DNA of 64,000 nucleotides. Origin: a virus (taxonomy: Duplodnaviria; Caudoviricetes). Every line of letters starts with the position of its first letter. The stretch's first letter is position 1. The stretch spans positions 1 to 64,000 of the IMG/VR virus record IMGVR_UViG_3300035498_000732; one strand, 5' to 3'. The position numbers and the translations under genes are program-made. The notes under the pieces were generated by a model. It saw only the letters and a list, made by a program, of their open reading frames with translations, searched no databases and was not told where the DNA came from. Shown here piece after piece: positions 2,165-31,747 of the stretch.

Positions 2165-3406
2165 CTAATCATCCATAGAGAATGCTTTCCATGGATCCAT
2201 TTCTACTGTATGTACTACAGAGTCATGAAATGCTTTCATAGAAATATTTTTTAAGGTAGAAGGAATTACATCAGTCATTACACCTACATTTCTCATATTA
2301 GGTCCAAGTCTATACCATATATTTCCAGCGCATTTAGAACAGAATCCACCTTTGCTCTTACACATAGAAGAAAATCTGAACTTCACATTCTTTCCAATGT
2401 ACTTATCCATATTTTGAGAGGTAAGTTCTACTAAACTAGATCCTATTATCATCCAAGAATACATCCAATCATCTACATTCTTTTCAGTAAGATGTACTAT
2501 TACATAATTCTTAGTATGGCAATCAGATCCTTCTGGCAATAACTTAAGATGCTGTGTCATTGAAAGGAATAGCTTCTCCCAATATCCACCCATAGATGTT
2601 TTCTTACCTCTAGAGTATGGGCCAGCAGATAATGAATTGGCAAACATGGAATATTCATCTGCAGATACTCCATCCATATAATTAGAGAATGCAATATTAT
2701 ATGTCTTCTGGGCATTAGGATCAGGATTCTTCATGGCACCCTTCATGATATACATATTCTTGAAGTTGTTATCAATAGATCCACCTGCACCTGAATTGAA
2801 TCCATCCATTCCAGGGTCATTTCCGATATAATCTGTAGCATACTTTAGAAGTTCATTCTCCATATCTTCTACTACTTTTACATCACCTGCATCTATAGCA
2901 GCTTTATTCTTCTTAATAAGCTCAGCCTTTTTCTTATCTACCTTATCTGTTAAGGTAAGCATTTCCTCAGACCAGCTACCTGATAATACAGTAACAAACT
3001 TCATAAACTCTTGAGTTTTTTCTAGAAAATCTTTAAGATCATCTATAGTAATTCTATCTTCCATAAGAGCATATGATAATTTCTTCTGTATCTTTCCATA
3101 AGCTTTTTTAGTAATGGGATAATTTATATATCCTGTTACATGTGATACATGGGGTTCAATAAAATACTTATTGAATATCCATAATCCAGCAGTAGTGGTA
3201 AATGTATTTTTATTTGGTTTTCCACCTACTACGAATTTTCCAGGAGGTATTTCTATTGTGTCATATTGATTACAAGCATTATTACCATCAAATTCACCAA
3301 ATAAATCTAGTACAAATGATTGGCATACACTCTCCTCAGTCATATTGAGAAGAGTATCTATTACCTCCTGGTTTCGTATAGGCTTAGACACTCTGGTTTT
3401 AGCCAT
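2165..3406 (-). CDS. RNA polymerase beta' C-terminal subunit (probably virion RNAP)
   Basis: Bridge-helix-like SRGKKTSMGGYWEK, SDCHT, RFSSMC..CSKCAG, trigger-loop-like LKNISMKAFHD. Lies under a late promoter with a structural gene. Confidence 0.9.
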   Translation of the reverse strand: MAKTRVSKPIRNQEVIDTLLNMTEESVCQSFVLDLFGEFDGNNACNQYDTIEIPPGKFVVGGKPNKNTFTTTAGLWIFNKYFIEPHVSHVTGYINYPITKKAYGKIQKKLSYALMEDRITIDDLKDFLEKTQEFMKFVTVLSGSWSEEMLTLTDKVDKKKAELIKKNKAAIDAGDVKVVEDMENELLKYATDYIGNDPGMDGFNSGAGGSIDNNFKNMYIMKGAMKNPDPNAQKTYNIAFSNYMDGVSADEYSMFANSLSAGPYSRGKKTSMGGYWEKLFLSMTQHLKLLPEGSDCHTKNYVIVHLTEKNVDDWMYSWMIIGSSLVELTSQNMDKYIGKNVKFRFSSMCKSKGGFCSKCAGNIWYRLGPNMRNVGVMTDVIPSTLKNISMKAFHDSVVHTVEMDPWKAFSMDD

Positions 3407-4303: not shown

Positions 4304-6832
4304 CTAAACATACCGTATTGATACATTCTCCTTATTTATTCCACCAGATTCAGAAGTATCATAAGTTGCTTTTACTTTAGAAGCAGTATCATAAAATCCT
4401 GTATAATCTGTCTTGTCATATACATATGCTAATTGATCTACCCTATCAGCAATATTACACTGATTTCTTGAAGATTTATTAACGTTCTTATTTATTACTT
4501 CTTTAGCAATACCATCATTACTTCTAAAATCATTATACCATCTGTAAGCTTTATACCAATGATCTTGTATAGATGGTTCTTCTGAGATAGTTATGTCATT
4601 TAATTGATTAGCAATTCTATCTTGATCTGGAAGAATCTGCTCTTTAGATTTAAAGAATATTCTAAATAGAGCATCATCTATAATAAGACAAGTATTGGTA
4701 AGCTTATCATCTGCTACATATACAGTATCTAAATCCAAGATACTTATCTTGAATGATTTAAAGAAGTTGATAATATCCATTACATATACTTTTACTGCTT
4801 CGATGGATACGGCAGGTAATCCAGCAAATAGATAAGGAACAATTCCCATATCTACATACTCTTCAATACAGCATGCTATATTATATACTTGAGTGGCAAT
4901 CTTCTCATTTCTAGACTCTTCACTTACATTGACTAATGCTAAATACTTCTCATAGAGATCACTTCTCTTATATTGAAGAAATTCTGCATAACTGGTGGCT
5001 ATTGTACCTTCATCATCTATAACAAAGTAATCAAGATTTATTCTAGTAAGCATAAGAGAATCATAGATCTTTTTATATAATCTATATATTCTAGCATTAT
5101 TAGCAGTCATCATTTCATGTACTACATGGTCATAGATATTCTTGTTATTTGTATAGACTTCCATAAGTTGAGTAAATGAGAAAATGCCATTAGACGGATC
5201 TTTCCATCCAGATATACCCATATCATCAAATGTCTTTACTCCAGTCTCCCAGAGATATGTAGCCAATTCAGATAAATCAGCTTCAAAATTAAATCCCAAT
5301 ATCTTAAGACTTTCATCTACATCTGTAATTATAACATCTTCTGTTCCATAATATACATGTGCTAAAGCATACATATATATGAATGCATCCATTATTGTAA
5401 CAGATGTATTCAATACTGGAACTTTAACAAGTAATAATGATTTATCGATATCATTATTCAGAAGCAAATTAATGAAGTATGTAATCTGGAATAGATATTC
5501 GGACATAGAGTATACAGATTTGATAGACATATATTTAGTCCTGAGCATATTGAAATTATACTCAAGAATATCCTGTCTAACTTCATCTTCTGTATGATCT
5601 CCAATCCAATATTGATCTGATCTAGTCACCTCTTCATAGTCCAATATGTTAGCTTCAGTTTTTATAGCATCATCAGGTAATTCACTAATTCCAACTCTAA
5701 GAAACTCCAATGAATATGATGAATCCACATCTTCTACTATATCTCCAGCATCATTCTCCATAGTGGCAAAGATATAATTACCATCTGCATCTTTCTTTCT
5801 ACTCTTTAAGAGATAGTATTTGAATATTTCTATATTATCAAAGCCAAATAGAGATACTATATCTATGATGCATCTATCTGTGGATTTATACTTGATTAAT
5901 TTATTGAGATTTCTCACGAGAGATATCTGATATCTTATTGGAATCTCTGGGAAAAATTTAACGCCAGAGGCTTCAAAGAGATATTGAATAGTTCTAATAT
6001 CGAATACATCCTTTCTAATGATATACTCTGGAATCTCGTTGATCATATCACACATAGTCTGAAGTATAATCATTACCATCATAAATTTCTCATAATAATC
6101 AGACTTATAATTGTATGCTTCATCATAATAAAATTTAAGATAAATAATTCGATTCACTTCCAATAGATCTTGGAATCTAGTTCTTAATTCTGTCTCATCA
6201 CATTCTCCCACATATAGTGGAGCGAATTTGCCAGCCTTTCTAGCATCATATATTCCTACTTTTCTTTTGCCAATGAATCTAAGATACTCTGCTTCTGGAT
6301 AGAGTTCTAATAGAGTATCTATTACTCCAGCATTCTCAAATGCTTTGATAATATCAGTATCATATCTATGGATATATGTACCATAATCTATATAATTCTT
6401 AAGACTATCTGGCACTATATCTTCTGGTAACAGAATACCGTCTTGACCCATTGGTGGAAGCCCATTTAATTTACGATAGTACTCATTCTCTTCCTCGTAG
6501 CTGTCAATATATGATTCCCTGATGCTACTAGTAAGCATATCTCTATACTCTTCTGGAATCAGATCATTATTAGCAGACCATTGATAGATCTCTTTGCTAG
6601 TAATACTTGGAATCTTAGATATTTCGTTCTCCCCGAATTTATACATAGCAAAAGTAGCGAATCCATCTACAGATGCAAGATAAAGATCAGATCTAACAAG
6701 AGATGCTTCTGTCTCTTGATTATCTGCTTCTACATCATCTTTTAGAACTACTCTATCTGCAATTATTTGCTTGCAATTATATATAATTTCATCAAGCATA
6801 GGGGTGTCTGTTAATACTTTTTCAATTTCCAT
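4304..6832 (-). CDS. Putative baseplate wedge protein
   Basis: Segment LIKYKSTDRCIIDIVSLFGF resembles P2 gpI-type KGT motif; late promoter 6858-6869. Confidence 0.6.
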   Translation of the reverse strand: MEIEKVLTDTPMLDEIIYNCKQIIADRVVLKDDVEADNQETEASLVRSDLYLASVDGFATFAMYKFGENEISKIPSITSKEIYQWSANNDLIPEEYRDMLTSSIRESYIDSYEEENEYYRKLNGLPPMGQDGILLPEDIVPDSLKNYIDYGTYIHRYDTDIIKAFENAGVIDTLLELYPEAEYLRFIGKRKVGIYDARKAGKFAPLYVGECDETELRTRFQDLLEVNRIIYLKFYYDEAYNYKSDYYEKFMMVMIILQTMCDMINEIPEYIIRKDVFDIRTIQYLFEASGVKFFPEIPIRYQISLVRNLNKLIKYKSTDRCIIDIVSLFGFDNIEIFKYYLLKSRKKDADGNYIFATMENDAGDIVEDVDSSYSLEFLRVGISELPDDAIKTEANILDYEEVTRSDQYWIGDHTEDEVRQDILEYNFNMLRTKYMSIKSVYSMSEYLFQITYFINLLLNNDIDKSLLLVKVPVLNTSVTIMDAFIYMYALAHVYYGTEDVIITDVDESLKILGFNFEADLSELATYLWETGVKTFDDMGISGWKDPSNGIFSFTQLMEVYTNNKNIYDHVVHEMMTANNARIYRLYKKIYDSLMLTRINLDYFVIDDEGTIATSYAEFLQYKRSDLYEKYLALVNVSEESRNEKIATQVYNIACCIEEYVDMGIVPYLFAGLPAVSIEAVKVYVMDIINFFKSFKISILDLDTVYVADDKLTNTCLIIDDALFRIFFKSKEQILPDQDRIANQLNDITISEEPSIQDHWYKAYRWYNDFRSNDGIAKEVINKNVNKSSRNQCNIADRVDQLAYVYDKTDYTGFYDTASKVKATYDTSESGGINKENVSIRYV

Positions 6833-7592: not shown

Positions 7593-8570
7593 TTACTGTA
7601 AATCAATCATCATTCTAAGGCGCACATAATCCTGGTATTCAGGTTTAATCATGTAATATACATAGGCCTCAAGTAAATCAAAAGCATTATATCCTCTACC
7701 AAAGATATAGAATGTATTGATTCCATTTTCTGGATACTTTCCGTACATATCATCTACAGTAATGAAATGCTTTCTATCTCTCTTTACAGTATAAAAATCA
7801 TCTAAGATTGATGAACACTGTGTACATGGTACATTAGCCATACTATCTGGCTGCTTGCCATAATTAAGCTGTAATTGAGACATGTAATCATTTCTCAGAT
7901 TATCATGTGGGCAAGAATACTTATGAGATGAATTTGCTACAAGAATAATTTTCTCTTTATTATCCAATTTAAGAATCTCATCATTTGGATTAAATATAGT
8001 ATTAGCAATCACATAAGAGAACTCATCTCTGTTAAGCTCTTTCTGAAGTTCTTTAATATCCCAAATCTCTTTTGAAGATGAAGAAATAAAATTGAACTTT
8101 GGATATACTTCATGAATATAATCTAATAAAAGATCAGACGCCACATTGATGTAGTTTAATTCACTCTCCATCTTTTGAGTATAGAGATTACATGCATGGT
8201 CATACATATGGAATGGCTGCAATTTTGTATTAGTATACTCAGCAACTAATGATACACCTTTAGAATTAAACCATTCTACTGTAGAATCAGCATTATCATT
8301 AGTAGCTCTACCTGTGCAATATACCTCTCCATTCCAGATTGAAATAGGAAATACTCCGTATACTCCTTTAATTATGCAATCATCTCTAAACCATTCTGGA
8401 TGTGCTACTGGCCAATTTGGGATAATTGTGTCATCATTTTCATCTTTACATTCTGCTGCTTTTTCTTTCTCTAATTCTTCTTTTGTTTTTCCGTACATGA
8501 GTTCTATAAATGCCTGATTCATTCTGGCATTGAAATAGAAATCAGGTAAAAATAAATTTACCATATGCAT
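7593..8570 (-). CDS. Peptidase U32-like protein, paralog B (degenerate)
   Basis: Full-length similarity to 8699-9631; YIFGRG in place of KLEGRG. Start moved to the ATG after AAGGAAGG. Confidence 0.55.
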   Translation of the reverse strand: MHMVNLFLPDFYFNARMNQAFIELMYGKTKEELEKEKAAECKDENDDTIIPNWPVAHPEWFRDDCIIKGVYGVFPISIWNGEVYCTGRATNDNADSTVEWFNSKGVSLVAEYTNTKLQPFHMYDHACNLYTQKMESELNYINVASDLLLDYIHEVYPKFNFISSSSKEIWDIKELQKELNRDEFSYVIANTIFNPNDEILKLDNKEKIILVANSSHKYSCPHDNLRNDYMSQLQLNYGKQPDSMANVPCTQCSSILDDFYTVKRDRKHFITVDDMYGKYPENGINTFYIFGRGYNAFDLLEAYVYYMIKPEYQDYVRLRMMIDLQ

Positions 8571-8698
8571 TTTCCTTCCTTTCATATCTTTATAGAATAT
8601 CTTATTATTAAAATTAACGTTTATTCAATATTTAAATACTAGAAAAACAGTCAAATAATAAAACTATATTTACGGAAGTTCAGAAAGGAGTACTGAAA

Positions 8699-9631
8699 AT
8701 GGCTAAAGTAAAGTTTTTCTTGCCAGGTGTGGGAGAACAGAGATTGAGAATACTAAATGGATCATTGATAGATAAGCTGGAGAAGTATCCTCATATGTTT
8801 AGAGATATTGAGGTAGGAGCATTTTATGGACATTATCCGGGAATCCCATGGTCTGGTGGAAGATTCTCTAATGGATTTGCTACATATCAGGATGTCTATA
8901 CAGATCTTGCATTCTATAATAATACTCTCAATGTTCCTGTAAGATACACATTCACCAATACTCTGGTTACAGAAGAATTATTGAATGATCAATTTGGCAA
9001 TATTGTATTGATGGCTGCAGATAATGGAATGAATGAAGTGCTGGTAAATAATGATATCTTGGAAGCATATATTAGAGAACGTTATCCAAGTTTTAAGATC
9101 TGTGCATCTACTACAAAGAGAATCACTACTAAAGAACAATATGACCAATATAAAGGAAAATATGATTACATTGTATTAGATTATTCCTTCAATAAGAAAC
9201 CAGAACTCTTTGAGTTAGAGGATAAAGAGCATATTGAATTACTTATTATGACATTCTGCTGGGATGATTGCCCCAATAGAATGCATCATCAGTATGTAAC
9301 CAATTACAGTGATTTGAATCTGTTATCTAGTGAGCAACACTATAAAATGTATACTTGCCCATTCTTTAGAGATAAGAATTGGATGTTCTATGATCATATA
9401 GCTGCTCATAAGCATATCATTGATCCTGATGTATTATATGATAAATATGTGCCTGCAGGATTTATTAATATGAAGCTTGAAGGCCGTGGCAATGATATTT
9501 ATGATGTAATGGAATCGTATGTATATTATATGGTACTGCCAGAGTATAGAAATGAGATAAGACTTATGTTTGCTAAGGATATTGCATCTGGTGTGATTCC
9601 TCAGCAGGCTGCACAGCAGCAGGCTAGTTAA
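8699..9631 (+). CDS. Peptidase U32-like (putative Fe-S TIM barrel) protein, paralog A
   Basis: KLEGR motif, CxxxCxxR plus distal Cys, ASTT, DYIVLD; late promoter 8646-8657. Confidence 0.65.
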   Translation: MAKVKFFLPGVGEQRLRILNGSLIDKLEKYPHMFRDIEVGAFYGHYPGIPWSGGRFSNGFATYQDVYTDLAFYNNTLNVPVRYTFTNTLVTEELLNDQFGNIVLMAADNGMNEVLVNNDILEAYIRERYPSFKICASTTKRITTKEQYDQYKGKYDYIVLDYSFNKKPELFELEDKEHIELLIMTFCWDDCPNRMHHQYVTNYSDLNLLSSEQHYKMYTCPFFRDKNWMFYDHIAAHKHIIDPDVLYDKYVPAGFINMKLEGRGNDIYDVMESYVYYMVLPEYRNEIRLMFAKDIASGVIPQQAAQQQAS

Positions 9632-9639
9632 ATATAAAT

Positions 9640-9670
9640 GGGGTGCTGAAATGCACCCCTCATTTATTTT
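9640..9670 (+). terminator. Intrinsic terminator
   Basis: GGGGTGC/GCACCCC stem plus T-rich tail. Confidence 0.7.
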
Positions 9671-9707
9671 GAAATATGGATTTTCCTCAATTACATATTA
9701 TATATTT

Positions 9708-9805
9708 GAATAATGCAATAAGCATTTGGCGGATTCGCCGCCAATCATCTCTTTCACCTTATAAAGGGAAGTCTGTCTGTAATGGGCAGACTTCTTTTTT
9801 TTTTT
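9708..9805 (+). ncRNA. Candidate early small RNA
   Basis: Early promoter ~9688-9704, hairpin 9726-9744, CU-rich linker, terminator 9768-9805; no ORF. Confidence 0.6.
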
Positions 9806-9875
9806 GTAATTAAATGATTGATCGATAATATATTATACCTGTAGAGAGATGATACAATCAAAGGAGGAACAAGAA

Positions 9876-10742
9876 ATGGGTGAAAGAAGTGAGTTAAAGG
9901 AATACGTCACTAAGTTAGTATTCCAAAAGTATGCTGATGTAATAAATCAGTATAGAAAGGAGATAATACTCCTAAGAAAGACTATCCTAGATGATGTGCA
10001 TAGAGATCCTAATTATAAAGAGTCTTTAGACACTATATCCAGACATAAAAAGCTCATAGAAGCAAAAGTAAATTTGGCTAATGCGTATAGAGCTGAACTG
10101 GCTAGGGTAAAAGTAAACTATACAGATCCGACTATTAGAGAAGAAAAGATACGTGAGATATGCAGTATTCTCGTGGACATTCAAATCGATCTGACGCGTA
10201 TGCGTAATGGAGACAAGGTATCAAGCTATAACACCGAAATGGAATACTTTAATAAACATTCAAAGCATGCTCAATTATCTAAAGTAGAAGGTATGCTAGA
10301 TAATGTGATAAAAGTACGTGATGATGAAATTGATCGTACTGTAAAGTATGCATTGACTGTATTTAATATGATTAGATGCAAGCAATTTTACAATTTCGGA
10401 TATTTCATATACAAGGACACTGACTATATAGATGATAGTATAGAGAATAAGCTATCTGATAAATATAGCTGGTGGAGATCTAGAAAAGAATGTGAAGACA
10501 TGTATGAAAAACATGCCAAAGAAACTTATGGGGAGCCAATAAGTTCCATAATAGTGCCACCAATTAAGAATATGGTGAAGAATAAACGAGGAGTTAGCAG
10601 TGCTCATGAAATAAAATCCATAGATGAGATGGATGTATTCACGGGGTATGATTATGACATAGAGCTGCATGAATCTGATATGAAGGTATATCTTAATTAT
10701 GTATATCAGAAGAAGGGGTTCTTTAGTGGTAAATCTGTATAA
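9876..10742 (+). CDS. Hypothetical helical protein (early)
   Basis: AAGGAGG RBS before ATG 9876; early promoter ~9828-9837. Confidence 0.75.
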   Translation: MGERSELKEYVTKLVFQKYADVINQYRKEIILLRKTILDDVHRDPNYKESLDTISRHKKLIEAKVNLANAYRAELARVKVNYTDPTIREEKIREICSILVDIQIDLTRMRNGDKVSSYNTEMEYFNKHSKHAQLSKVEGMLDNVIKVRDDEIDRTVKYALTVFNMIRCKQFYNFGYFIYKDTDYIDDSIENKLSDKYSWWRSRKECEDMYEKHAKETYGEPISSIIVPPIKNMVKNKRGVSSAHEIKSIDEMDVFTGYDYDIELHESDMKVYLNYVYQKKGFFSGKSV

Positions 10743-10790
10743 ATTTTAAAGAGGAAACTTGCTTGTAATGAAAGTGAGTTTTCTTTTTTC

Positions 10791-10935
10791 TAAGTTCCGT
10801 AAAAGTTCAATTTTTCAATTATATAATATCATTATGATAAAGGATAAGTAATAACGCTTATCTAAACTTGTTTGCTAAGGGGATCAGAATGATCTTAAAC
10901 GAATAACGCCCTTGGAGAAAGAGAGGTACATTATG
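10791..10935 (+). repeat. Promoter + structured leader repeat, copy A
   Basis: Near-identical to 11310-11446 and 31447-31588. Confidence 0.9.
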
Positions 10936-11256
10936 AAGAAGAAAGTATTAAACTATACTCCGCATGACATTAACTTGTTTCTGCAGGACGGGTCCACGAT
11001 GACTATTAAGTCATCTGGATCTGCTCGAGTATCAAGTACCGAGACAGTAGTATCTACTGATCTCGGTATCCCGGAGACAATGACGGTATACGGTGATGTG
11101 GTAGATCTGCCAGCCCCGGCAGATGATACTATCATCATCGTATCACGTCTTGTACTGTCACGTTGTCCTGATAGGCCTGATCTTCGGGTTCCTGGCCTGC
11201 AGGTACGTGATAGTGACGGAAAGGTAATCGGTTGCAAGTCTTTGGCTCGCAACTGA
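10933..11256 (+). CDS. Phage hypothetical protein (NYTPHDI family), higher GC than the genome
   Basis: GAGG RBS; terminator 11260-11291. Confidence 0.8.
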   Translation: MKKKVLNYTPHDINLFLQDGSTMTIKSSGSARVSSTETVVSTDLGIPETMTVYGDVVDLPAPADDTIIIVSRLVLSRCPDRPDLRVPGLQVRDSDGKVIGCKSLARN

Positions 11257-11309
11257 TTACAAAAAAGGATAGCTTCGGCTATTCTTTTTTCTATGATCCT
11301 GCTGGAGAA

Positions 11310-11446
11310 TGTAAAAATACTCTTTTTCAATTATATAATATTATAGTGATACAGGATAAGTAATAGGCTTATCTAAATTTGTTTACCAAGGGGACTATAA
11401 TAGTCTTAAATGAATAACGCCCTTGGAGAAAGAGAGGTACAGTATG
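11310..11446 (+). repeat. Promoter + structured leader repeat, copy B
   Basis: Homologous to copy A with compensatory stem changes. Confidence 0.9.
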
Positions 11447-11872
11447 AGTATTATAAGTAAATATGCTGTTGATGGCTTTAAGACAGCATCAGATATGATT
11501 ATTAATAAAAAGCCATGTGATATCACATATGATATCACGAATGGGTCTCCGTTTTATACGGAGCCCGACAAAAGTAGTATATATGCTACTTTCGATGCAT
11601 TAAGGGGTGTTCATTTACTCTTTAACAGCATCGATGGGATGAGTGATTTAGCGCTTCTCGACATTAGTGCTCACTCATTGGTAGTAGAGGCATATGTCTC
11701 TGCTGCAATATCAACGAATGATTGGCCGGATGATCCCTACGAGCTGGGTGATGGGTTACCTTGCGTGCCCATGTCCAAGTTATGTTGGGATTATCTTAAG
11801 AAGATCATCGATGACCTTCTTAAGAAGGGCTACACCATCGATGATGATTGGAGAAAGGCTATCTTCGGATAG
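11444..11872 (+). CDS. Hypothetical protein
   Basis: RBS supplied by leader copy B; terminator ~11884-11920. Confidence 0.75.
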   Translation: MSIISKYAVDGFKTASDMIINKKPCDITYDITNGSPFYTEPDKSSIYATFDALRGVHLLFNSIDGMSDLALLDISAHSLVVEAYVSAAISTNDWPDDPYELGDGLPCVPMSKLCWDYLKKIIDDLLKKGYTIDDDWRKAIFG

Positions 11873-31405: not shown

Positions 31406-31446
31406 TAATAGTTTGGGTAGGCACTTTAGCCTACCCACTTTTTTTC

Positions 31447-31588
31447 TAAGTTCCGTAAAAGTTCAATTTTTCAATTATATAATATCATGGTAATACAGGA
31501 TAAGTAAGTGCTTATCTAAATTTGTTTACCAAGGGGATCATAATGATCTTAAACGAATAACGCCCTTGGAGAAATGGAGGAAACCATG
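31447..31588 (+). repeat. Promoter + structured leader repeat, copy C
   Basis: Near-identical to copy A, 20 kb away. Confidence 0.9.
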
Positions 31589-31747
31589 AGTGAAACAATG
31601 CATATTATTGATCAAATGGCCAATGCAAAGACTTCTAAAGAGAGGTTAGAGCTTAGCATAAAACTTGCCAAGGCTAATGATGTACCAGATGATAGAATTA
31701 TGAAGTCATCTGATGATTTAAAGGCATGGTTAGGAGGTGCAAAATAA
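31586..31747 (+). CDS. Small 53-aa early protein (not in ORF track)
   Basis: GGAGG RBS from leader; MSETMHIIDQMANAK... Confidence 0.7.
   Translation: MSETMHIIDQMANAKTSKERLELSIKLAKANDVPDDRIMKSSDDLKAWLGGAK

What the first reader, a model, noticed from the sequence alone, without database searches (positions are those of the whole stretch)
9688..9805. Early ~100-nt sRNA candidate with the same hairpin / anti-RBS / terminator plan
Seen: it sits between a terminator and the next gene's own promoter and has its own early promoter. A GC hairpin is followed by AAUCAUCUCUUUCACCUU (complement of AAGGUGAAAGAGAUGAUU, an SD plus AUG) and a strong terminator. I found no exact target in the window. Inference: early silencing of a host mRNA, possibly a defence gene.
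Basis: partly seen in the sequence, partly recalled or inferred. Interest (0 to 1): 0.7.

Follow-up and report, generated by a model that had tools for sequence, protein, structure and literature searches.

The report
Conserved early phage small RNA candidate
An uncultured AR9-like giant phage carries a conserved ~95-base non-coding RNA gene whose exposed, ribosome-RNA-like stretch matches the start of the fast-evolving gene next door, so it probably tunes that neighbour rather than a host defence gene, but no RNA data exist yet.

Summary
Between the terminator of a U32-like gene (9640-9659) and the promoter of the next gene lies a unit with a promoter motif, a GC hairpin (9726-9744), an unpaired pyrimidine stretch (9744-9756) and a strong terminator (9763-9805).

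Two related IMG/VR phages carry it at the same place. The hairpin core GGAUUCGCC and the 13-nt stretch AUCAUCUCUUUCA are invariant. Four of seven hairpin pairs show compensatory changes, and each terminator has a different sequence. No ORF is conserved and no Rfam family matches.

The promoter fits the AR9 early consensus (ATATATTAT-6N-G), and the phage has split RNA polymerase beta genes.

The invariant stretch looks like the 16S anti-SD with two C-to-U changes.

In the window and in one relative, the stretch is complementary to the predicted 5' end of the neighbouring, fast-evolving orphan gene (9876-10742), with lineage-specific extensions: 14 perfect pairs in the relative, two sites in the window. 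The third phage lacks this, so another target must exist. A host-defence target has no support.

No transcript data could be obtained. The scan noted anti-RBS RNAs in other giant phages before, but of a different build.

The parts
9640..9659 (+). Intrinsic terminator hairpin of the upstream U32-like gene (8699-9631), followed by a T-rich tail. It separates that gene from the small RNA unit.
   Evidence: conserved in both relatives at 86-90%.
9690..9707 (+). Promoter motif ATTACATATTAT (9690-9701) plus a 6-nt spacer; the predicted +1 is G9708.
   Evidence: The same motif, 6-nt spacing and G occur in all three phages. It matches the AR9 early consensus AAATATATATTAT-(6N)-G (PMC5312081). The motif recurs before other genes.
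9708..9805 (+). Predicted small RNA, about 93-98 nt, non-coding.
   Evidence: Fold. No conserved ORF on either strand (plus reading of the relatives' sequence). No Rfam family.
9726..9744 (+). Hairpin H1: 7-bp stem and loop AUUCG. The core GGAUUCGCC (9731-9739) is invariant.
   Evidence: 20 of 21 cells are paired and 4 of 7 pairs show changes on both sides among 3 sequences; the core is 100% identical.
9744..9756 (+). Exposed seed AUCAUCUCUUUCA, invariant in all three phages. Its first 11 nt equal the 16S anti-SD with two C-to-U changes.
   Evidence: The 16S 3' end sequence is from textbook knowledge.
9763..9805 (+). Intrinsic terminator: 16-17 bp stem, loop, then U11.
   Evidence: Both relatives have a terminator of different sequence at the same place.
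9825..9842 (+). Promoter motif of gene X (ATAATATATTAT plus 6 nt); the predicted +1 is A9843 (or G9844).
   Evidence: AR9 consensus.
9843..9853 (+). Site 1: AGAGAGAUGAU at the predicted 5' end of the X mRNA. It pairs with seed bases 9744-9754 (11 bp, one G.U).
   Evidence: The equivalent site in relative L002 (5150-5163) is a 14-nt perfect complement starting at the predicted +1.
9860..9867 (+). Shine-Dalgarno AAAGGAGG of gene X, 6 nt downstream of site 1.
   Evidence: phage SD consensus.
9878..9892 (+). Site 2: GGGUGAAAGAAGUGA over the start codon and codons 2-6 of X. It has 9 perfect pairs with 9750-9758 and 14 of 15 positions pair in total.
   Evidence: The cofold minimum-energy structure uses this site.
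9876..10742 (+). Gene X: a 288-aa orphan that evolves fast and is the proposed target.
   Evidence: 24-30% aa identity among the three phages, in the C-terminal half only, while the upstream U32-like protein is 86-89% identical; almost no relatives anywhere.

Best explanation
This is a self-contained early gene for a ~95-nt non-coding RNA of an AR9-like giant phage. It is transcribed from a virion-RNA-polymerase-type early promoter (+1 about G9708) and ends at a strong intrinsic terminator. The RNA consists of a conserved hairpin, a 13-nt single-stranded seed (AUCAUCUCUUUCA) that resembles the 16S anti-SD with two C-to-U changes, and the terminator hairpin. The seed base-pairs with the 5' end of the mRNA of the adjacent early gene X, directly upstream of its Shine-Dalgarno sequence. 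In the window phage it also pairs over the start codon. The most likely effect is to limit translation of X as the stable RNA accumulates. Shown: the anatomy, the conservation, the covariation and the complementarity statistics. Inferred: transcription, promoter class, actual pairing in vivo and the direction of the effect. The seed stays invariant in a relative that lacks the X site, so at least one more target must exist. That could be an extended SD such as GAAGGAGGUGA on another phage early mRNA, or a host mRNA.
For: - Conservation: the unit sits at the same place in two relatives whose flanking DNA is about 80% identical. The H1 core (9 nt) and the seed (13 nt) are 100% identical, while all other segments are 58-90%.
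- Structure: 4 of 7 H1 pairs show compensatory changes, and only 3 of 500 shuffles reach the observed pairing. Each phage has a different terminator sequence and the seed is unpaired in all three folds (z = -4.1 to -6.2).
- Promoter: the motif, the 6-nt spacing and the G are conserved and match the AR9 early consensus. The phage has split RNAP beta-like genes.
- Target in L002: 14 nt of perfect complement between the RNA's unpaired region and the predicted first 14 nt of the X mRNA. This includes a linker found only in that phage. It is the only such 14-mer among 2838 windows apart from the RNA's own antisense; the next best match is 11 nt. Cofold ddG is reached by 2 of 200 shuffled leaders. 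X ranks 1 of 71 translation-initiation regions (TIRs, the region around each start codon).
- Target in the window: the X 5' region is the only window of 7450, apart from the self-antisense, with two separate sites of at least 9 nt perfect complement. X ranks 7 of 145.
- X is one of only two ortholog pairs with high ranks in both phages. The other pair is driven by its SD.
Against: - There are only three closely related genomes.
- The third phage (L003) has no complementary site in the X leader or TIR, although its seed is identical.
- In the window the cofold gain is modest: 14 of 200 shuffled leaders do as well.
- GAGAUGAU in the two leaders could be shared ancestry rather than selection; only the flanking extensions are lineage-specific.
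- The promoter class is inferred by analogy to AR9, and the X promoter has A, not G, at the 6-nt spacing.
- The direction of regulation is not determined.
Confidence: 0.5

Rival explanations
1. The RNA is real and pairs with the extreme 5' end of the X mRNA, but it activates X. The duplex would shield the 5' end from 5'-to-3' exonuclease (RNase J1 type), as RoxS does for yflS and FasX for ska. It would act as a private, RNA-borne version of the STAB-SD/30S protection known in Firmicutes.
For: In both phages that have the site, complementarity starts at the predicted +1 of the X mRNA. The X leader is purine-rich and unstructured. The 5' tag looks like an SD with G-to-A changes. The likely host clade is Clostridia, which use RNase J-type decay (general knowledge). 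Precedents: PMC5419742 and PMC4113751.
Against: The leaders are only 33 nt long, so any site upstream of the SD is close to the 5' end by necessity. Window site 2 covers the start codon, and the L002 site ends 3 nt before the SD; both favour a translational block. A cis hairpin would give the same protection more simply.
Confidence: 0.17
2. The RNA is a trans-acting regulator whose main targets lie elsewhere: host mRNAs or phage mRNAs with extended SDs. On this reading the match to X is secondary or incidental.
For: The seed is invariant even in L003, which has no X site. The seed pairs by G.U with the extended SD GAAGGAGGUGA. A small early gene 'Y' whose mRNA starts with that SD ranks 1 of 27 and 2 of 71 in the two relatives. 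Half of the phage genome and the host are unseen (52% complete).
Against: No specific host target was found. Six 13-mer hits in five Lachnospiraceae/Ruminococcus genomes were scattered, five of them plainly inside coding frames and one at a possible start codon with only a weak SD. High ranks of extended-SD genes follow trivially from an anti-SD-like seed. The lineage-specific extensions of pairing with X are not explained.
Confidence: 0.2
3. It acts in cis. The unit is the first of two tandem promoters for X, and its terminator works as an attenuator. In read-through transcripts the seed pairs with the downstream 5' tag to form a long-range helix around the terminator, which affects processing or translation.
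For: The inverted complementary arms flank the terminator and the X promoter at about 95 nt in two phages. Many 201phi2-1 small RNAs arise by premature termination in 5'UTRs (PMC11512511).
Against: The terminator is very strong (16 bp plus U11), so read-through should be rare. No conserved antiterminator alternative was found on reading the three sequences. The X gene has its own promoter motif in all three phages.
Confidence: 0.06
4. There is no RNA function. The region is just spacer DNA with a second terminator and a DNA-level protein-binding inverted repeat, or it is conserved by chance.
For: There are only three related genomes and no expression data.
Against: Compensatory stem changes occur alongside an invariant loop and an invariant single-stranded stretch. 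The promoter-to-terminator geometry is conserved. The fold z-scores are strong.
Confidence: 0.05

Closest known systems
Intergenic and 5'UTR-derived small RNAs of giant phages 201phi2-1 and phiKZ (ONT-cappable-seq; PMC11512511)
   Same: Short promoter-to-terminator units in phiKZ/AR9-type giant phages, conserved by position next to a gene, with function unknown.
   Different: No sequence relation. Those RNAs have transcript evidence but no proposed target. This one has no transcript evidence but has a conserved seed and a statistically distinctive neighbouring target.
c4 antisense RNA of phages P1/P7 and CI RNA of P4 (recalled from the literature; the c4 comparison also appears in scan note e1-5353729)
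   Same: A phage small RNA encoded just upstream of, and in the same orientation as, the gene region it pairs with, using short complementary blocks rather than full antisense overlap.
   Different: c4 and CI are processed out of the target operon's own leader transcript and act in immunity of temperate elements. Here the RNA has its own promoter and terminator, in a giant phage of a virulent-type lineage.
RoxS-yflS (B. subtilis) and FasX-ska (S. pyogenes) 5'-end pairing (PMC5419742)
   Same: A Firmicute-type small RNA (hairpins, single-stranded pyrimidine seed, intrinsic terminator) pairing with the extreme 5' end of an mRNA.
   Different: Those seeds are C-runs pairing with G-runs and they are host-encoded. 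The effect here (block or protect) is unknown.
STAB-SD element of cry3A mRNA (PMC4113751)
   Same: An SD-like sequence at the 5' end of an mRNA, upstream of the real SD, that is bound by an anti-SD sequence.
   Different: STAB-SD binds the 16S rRNA of a 30S subunit. The X tag carries G-to-A changes that weaken 16S pairing and make it a perfect match to the phage RNA instead.
Anti-RBS hairpin RNAs noted by this scan in other giant phages (e1-5319951, e1-5903480, e1-5878176; compared there with Cuckoo/CcsR RNAs)
   Same: A phage non-coding RNA whose exposed bases are complementary to ribosome-site regions of its own early genes.
   Different: Those present the complement in hairpin loops in 3'UTRs and match a private tag shared by many early genes. 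Here there is a single-stranded linker seed in a stand-alone gene and one neighbouring target. No sequence relation was found.

Membership tests
Trans-acting base-pairing small RNA (stand-alone gene, Firmicute type) | Own promoter and intrinsic terminator, separate from the flanking genes | tested here: met
   Terminators lie before and after the unit. The promoter motif with 6-nt spacing to G is conserved in 3 phages. Promoter activity is inferred, not measured.
Trans-acting base-pairing small RNA (stand-alone gene, Firmicute type) | No conserved protein-coding potential | tested here: met
   Only 2-4 codon or unconserved frames without an RBS on the plus strand. The minus-strand frames are 16, 3 and 20 codons and unrelated (sequences).
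Trans-acting base-pairing small RNA (stand-alone gene, Firmicute type) | Conserved secondary structure with covariation and a conserved unpaired seed | tested here: met
Trans-acting base-pairing small RNA (stand-alone gene, Firmicute type) | Complementarity to a target initiation region above chance and conserved across relatives | tested here: inconclusive
   Met in L002 (unique 14-mer) and in the window (unique two-site window). Absent in L003.
Trans-acting base-pairing small RNA (stand-alone gene, Firmicute type) | A discrete transcript is detected | not testable with these tools
Any Rfam family | Score at or above the family's gathering threshold | tested here: not met
   No hit in the whole window. 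The best sub-threshold hit was MicC at 23.8 bits against 90 required.
AR9-type early (virion RNAP) promoter | AAATATATATTAT-(6N)-G(+1) | tested here: met
   11-12 of 13 motif positions plus the 6N-G are met before the RNA in all three phages. The gene X promoter in the window has A at +1. Split RNAP beta-like genes are present.
P1 c4 / P4 CI type immunity RNA | RNA processed from the leader of the same operon that it represses | tested here: not met
   A strong terminator and a second promoter separate the RNA from gene X.
RoxS/FasX-type 5'-end protector | Pairing with the first nucleotides of the target mRNA | tested here: inconclusive
   Pairing starts at the predicted +1 in the window and in L002, but the transcription start sites are predicted only.
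RoxS/FasX-type 5'-end protector | Stabilisation dependent on RNase J1 | not testable with these tools
   Needs an experiment.

The most novel reading that the evidence does not exclude
The RNA is a deliberate mimic of the 16S rRNA 3' end: a hairpin followed by an anti-SD-like tail, as helix 45 plus the anti-SD in the ribosome. It carries two C-to-U changes that create a private, 'orthogonal' anti-SD. This pairs perfectly with a matching private SD-like tag (GAGAUGAU, an SD with G-to-A changes) at the 5' end of a fast-evolving early phage mRNA. It keeps only wobble pairing to ordinary SDs. That would give the phage an RNA-borne, ribosome-independent version of STAB-SD protection or masking for a gene under arms-race selection.
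Probability: 0.12. Interest if true: 0.8.

Novelty: new member of a known kind. Interest (0 to 1): 0.5.

Why it matters
Small RNAs of giant phages are being found by transcriptomics, but almost none has a target. This candidate comes with a concrete, testable partner: the neighbouring early gene, with lineage-specific matching bases. It also has a seed that is a two-base variant of the ribosomal anti-SD. If confirmed, it would show RNA-level control of an early, rapidly evolving gene in an AR9-like phage of gut or rumen Clostridia. It would also give a simple reporter system for studying phage riboregulation in Firmicute-type hosts.

Tried and rejected
- Exact or near target in the 126.7-kb phage record: no match closer than 4 mismatches to the 18-mer except the RNA's own antisense. 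A genome-wide duplex scan is dominated by G-rich repeats and SDs.
- More family members: a pattern scan of viral contigs found only the two relatives. A protein-guided metagenome scan found nothing. The metagenome pattern scan gave 120 stretches; the low-GC ones I read in context were all unrelated, and the rest lie on high-GC contigs unlike this 34% GC phage. Relatives at 30-40% identity in the U32-like protein have neither the RNA nor gene X. A scan with gene X found the same two relatives.
- Phage database BLAST: no match.
- Host target: searching TGAAAGAGATGAT in five genomes of the likely host clade gave six scattered hits and no recurring gene start.
- Direct check of the 16S 3' end in those genomes found nothing, probably because the draft assemblies lack rRNA ends. 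The anti-SD likeness therefore rests on the textbook sequence and on the phage SD consensus.
- Small ORFs on either strand were rejected as unconserved.
- An antiterminator alternative (seed against the terminator's 5' arm) exists weakly in two phages but is sterically impossible in the third, so it was rejected.
- The sigma-70-like promoter on the minus strand (9861-9832) is a by-product of the near-palindromic motif (ATATTATA / TATAATAT).
- Function of gene X: no Pfam or PHROG hit, no Atlas hit, and only 3 hits in 1.8 billion representatives.
- MAFFT misaligned the full RNA, so no covariance model was built. The hairpin alone was aligned without gaps.

Full report
**What is there**

The window is the first 64 kb of a 126,688-nt IMG/VR virus record (34% GC, estimated 52% complete). 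It encodes split RNA polymerase beta-like subunits (293-1561 and 2165-3406, minus strand) and virion proteins typical of phiKZ/AR9-type giant phages.

The finding lies in the 244-nt gap between a U32-like gene (8699-9631) and an orphan gene that I call X (9876-10742).
- the upstream terminator at 9640-9659;
- a GC hairpin at 9726-9744;
- the stretch AAUCAUCUCUUUCACCUU;
- a 16-17 bp terminator hairpin at 9763-9799, followed by eleven T.

Terminator-like sites are about 9 times over the shuffle expectation in this 2.5-kb stretch (6 against 0.7). The ~99-nt RNA folds with z = -4.9 and leaves the pyrimidine stretch single-stranded.

**Conservation**

A protein-guided scan with the U32-like protein found two related phage contigs, L002 and L003 (86-89% aa identity). 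They are syntenic with the window at 70-83% DNA identity. Both carry the same unit at the same place.

The 9-nt hairpin core GGAUUCGCC and the 13-nt stretch AUCAUCUCUUUCA are identical in all three. Every other segment of the intergenic region is 58-90% identical, and the U32-like coding DNA is about 81%.

In the hairpin, 20 of 21 cells are paired, and 4 of the 7 pairs show changes on both sides among only three sequences. Only 3 of 500 shuffles reach the observed pairing, and slid registers collapse. Each phage has a strong terminator of different sequence. In all three folds the 13-nt stretch stays open (z = -4.1 to -6.2).

No frame is conserved on either strand. No Rfam family reaches even a third of its threshold. 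This pattern is what selection on an RNA with an exposed functional stretch would produce, so I treat the RNA gene as probably real (about 0.8). The set has only three close relatives.

**Promoter and timing**

In all three phages the unit is preceded by ATTAyATATTAT, six bases, then G. The experimentally defined early promoter of the Bacillus giant phage AR9, read by the injected virion RNA polymerase, is AAATATATATTAT-(6N)-G(+1) (PMC5312081). The match is 11-12 of 13 positions plus the spacing.

The same motif precedes gene X and several other genes. An AR9-late-like AACA-6N-TA motif precedes the other small-RNA candidate at 2148-2036.

The 'early' label is therefore reasonable, by analogy. 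The predicted +1 is G9708, and the RNA is about 93-98 nt long.

**The seed**

The AAGG part of that reading comes from window-specific bases (CCUU) and is not conserved: the relatives have CAAG and CAGG.

The invariant part is AUCAUCUCUUU(CA). Laid without gaps on the textbook 3' end of Firmicute 16S rRNA (GAUCACCUCCUUUCU, from my own knowledge), AUCAUCUCUUU equals AUCACCUCCUU with two C-to-U changes. The phage's own ribosome sites have the consensus AAAGGAGG.

The seed can therefore pair with an extended SD (GAAGGAGGUGA) only through two G.U wobbles. It pairs perfectly with the variant AAAGAGAUGAU. I could not confirm the 16S end in candidate host genomes.

**A target next door**

Using the 6-nt rule, the X mRNA starts at A9843.
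- Its first 11 nt, AGAGAGAUGAU, pair with seed bases 9744-9754 (10 Watson-Crick pairs plus one G.U).
- The real SD (9860-9867) follows 6 nt later.
- A second site, GGGUGAAAGAAGUGA (9878-9892), covers the start codon's last base and the next codons. It has 9 perfect pairs and 14 of 15 positions paired, using the window-specific bases ACC of the RNA.
- This 68-nt stretch is the only one of 7450 genome windows, apart from the RNA's own antisense, that holds two separate perfect complements of at least 9 nt.

In L002:
- The predicted first 14 nt of the X mRNA (GAGAUGAUAAAAUA, L002 5150-5163) are a perfect complement of the RNA (5057-5070). This includes a UAUUUU linker found only in that phage.
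- It is the only 14-mer complement in the 48-kb contig apart from the RNA's own antisense; the next best match is 11 nt.
- Only 2 of 200 shuffled leaders give as much cofold gain.
- X ranks first of 71 initiation regions there and 7th of 145 in the window.
- It is one of only two ortholog pairs that rank high in both phages.

The two phages share only the 8-nt core GAGAUGAU and extend the pairing in opposite directions with lineage-specific bases. That argues for selection on pairing rather than mere shared ancestry.

The third phage, L003, has no such site, because its X leader differs in the first ~20 nt. Its seed is unchanged, so X cannot be the only reason the seed is conserved.

A second candidate is a small early gene, Y, present in both relatives. 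Its mRNA is predicted to begin directly with GAAGGAGGUGA or GAGGAGGUGA. It ranks 1 of 27 and 2 of 71. This could simply reflect its strong SD, and the gene lies beyond the left end of the window's contig.

**Gene X**

Gene X is an orphan. The three versions share only 24-30% identity, in the C-terminal half, while the upstream U32-like protein is 86-89% identical. A profile search of 1.8 billion representatives found three proteins. There is no Pfam, PHROG or Atlas match. It is a fast-evolving early gene of the kind expected in phage-host conflict, but its function is unknown.

**Mechanism**

I commit to the following: an early small RNA that pairs with the 5' region of the X mRNA and, as it accumulates, limits X translation. 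The arguments for a block are:
- the window's site 2 over the start codon;
- the L002 site ending 3 nt before the SD;
- the regulatory logic of a trans-acting repressor made from the same promoter class.

The main alternative with the same partners is protection of the 5' end from 5'-to-3' exonuclease. RoxS-yflS and FasX-ska are precedents (PMC5419742), and STAB-SD/30S binding is a conceptual parallel (PMC4113751). Pairing from +1 and the SD-like nature of the tag fit that reading. The U32-like gene's cellular relatives are almost all from Lachnospiraceae, Butyrivibrio and Ruminococcus, so a Clostridia host is plausible.

A host target cannot be excluded, but nothing supports it.

**Limits**

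- No RNA data could be obtained.
- Closer relatives could not be fetched.
- There are only three genomes.
- The start sites are predicted, not mapped.
- Half of the phage and the whole host are unseen.

**Verdict**

The small-RNA reading is supported by comparative evidence. The host-defence target is unsupported and is replaced by a neighbouring phage target found in two of three phages. I class this as a new sRNA family of a known kind, of moderate interest.

Noticed in passing
window 9876-10742; L002 5183-5998; L003 5179-6087: Gene X is a hypervariable orphan. The three phages share 24-30% aa identity, in the C-terminal half only, although the upstream U32-like protein is 86-89% identical. 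It has almost no relatives in 1.8 billion protein representatives.
   Followed up: partly
L144 13005-13305 (+) and L142 14787-15080 (+); left of the window's contig start: A small early gene 'Y' (86-89 aa, MKYRIRRIKR...) has a predicted mRNA that begins directly with an extended SD (GAAGGAGGUGA). It is the best or second-best predicted partner of the small RNA in both relatives.
   Followed up: partly
window 2148-2036 (-): The other small-RNA candidate of 'the same plan' is preceded by AACAATATGGTA. This fits the AR9 late promoter consensus AACA-(6N)-TA/G. It carries UUACCUCCCAUG, a true anti-SD plus anti-AUG.
   Followed up: partly
window 9832-9861 (-) and generally: The early motif ATATTATA reads TATAATAT on the other strand. 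Sigma-70-type scans therefore report spurious minus-strand promoters at every early promoter.
   Followed up: yes
G000 about 104470-104620 (-), beyond the window: This is a fourth copy of the promoter-plus-structured-leader element seen at 10784-10936, 11296-11447 and 31440-31590.
   Followed up: no
window 8699-9631 and 7593-8585: Cellular relatives of the U32-like (PrtC-type) gene, at 35-43% identity, are almost all in Lachnospiraceae, Butyrivibrio, Acetatifactor and Ruminococcus genomes from gut and rumen. This hints at the host clade.
   Followed up: partly
G000 94372 (-), beyond the window: The initiation region AGGGAGGAAAGAGAGAUGG of an 84-aa gene gives the best duplex energy with the seed in this genome (-24.1 kcal/mol). 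No ortholog was available for comparison.
   Followed up: no
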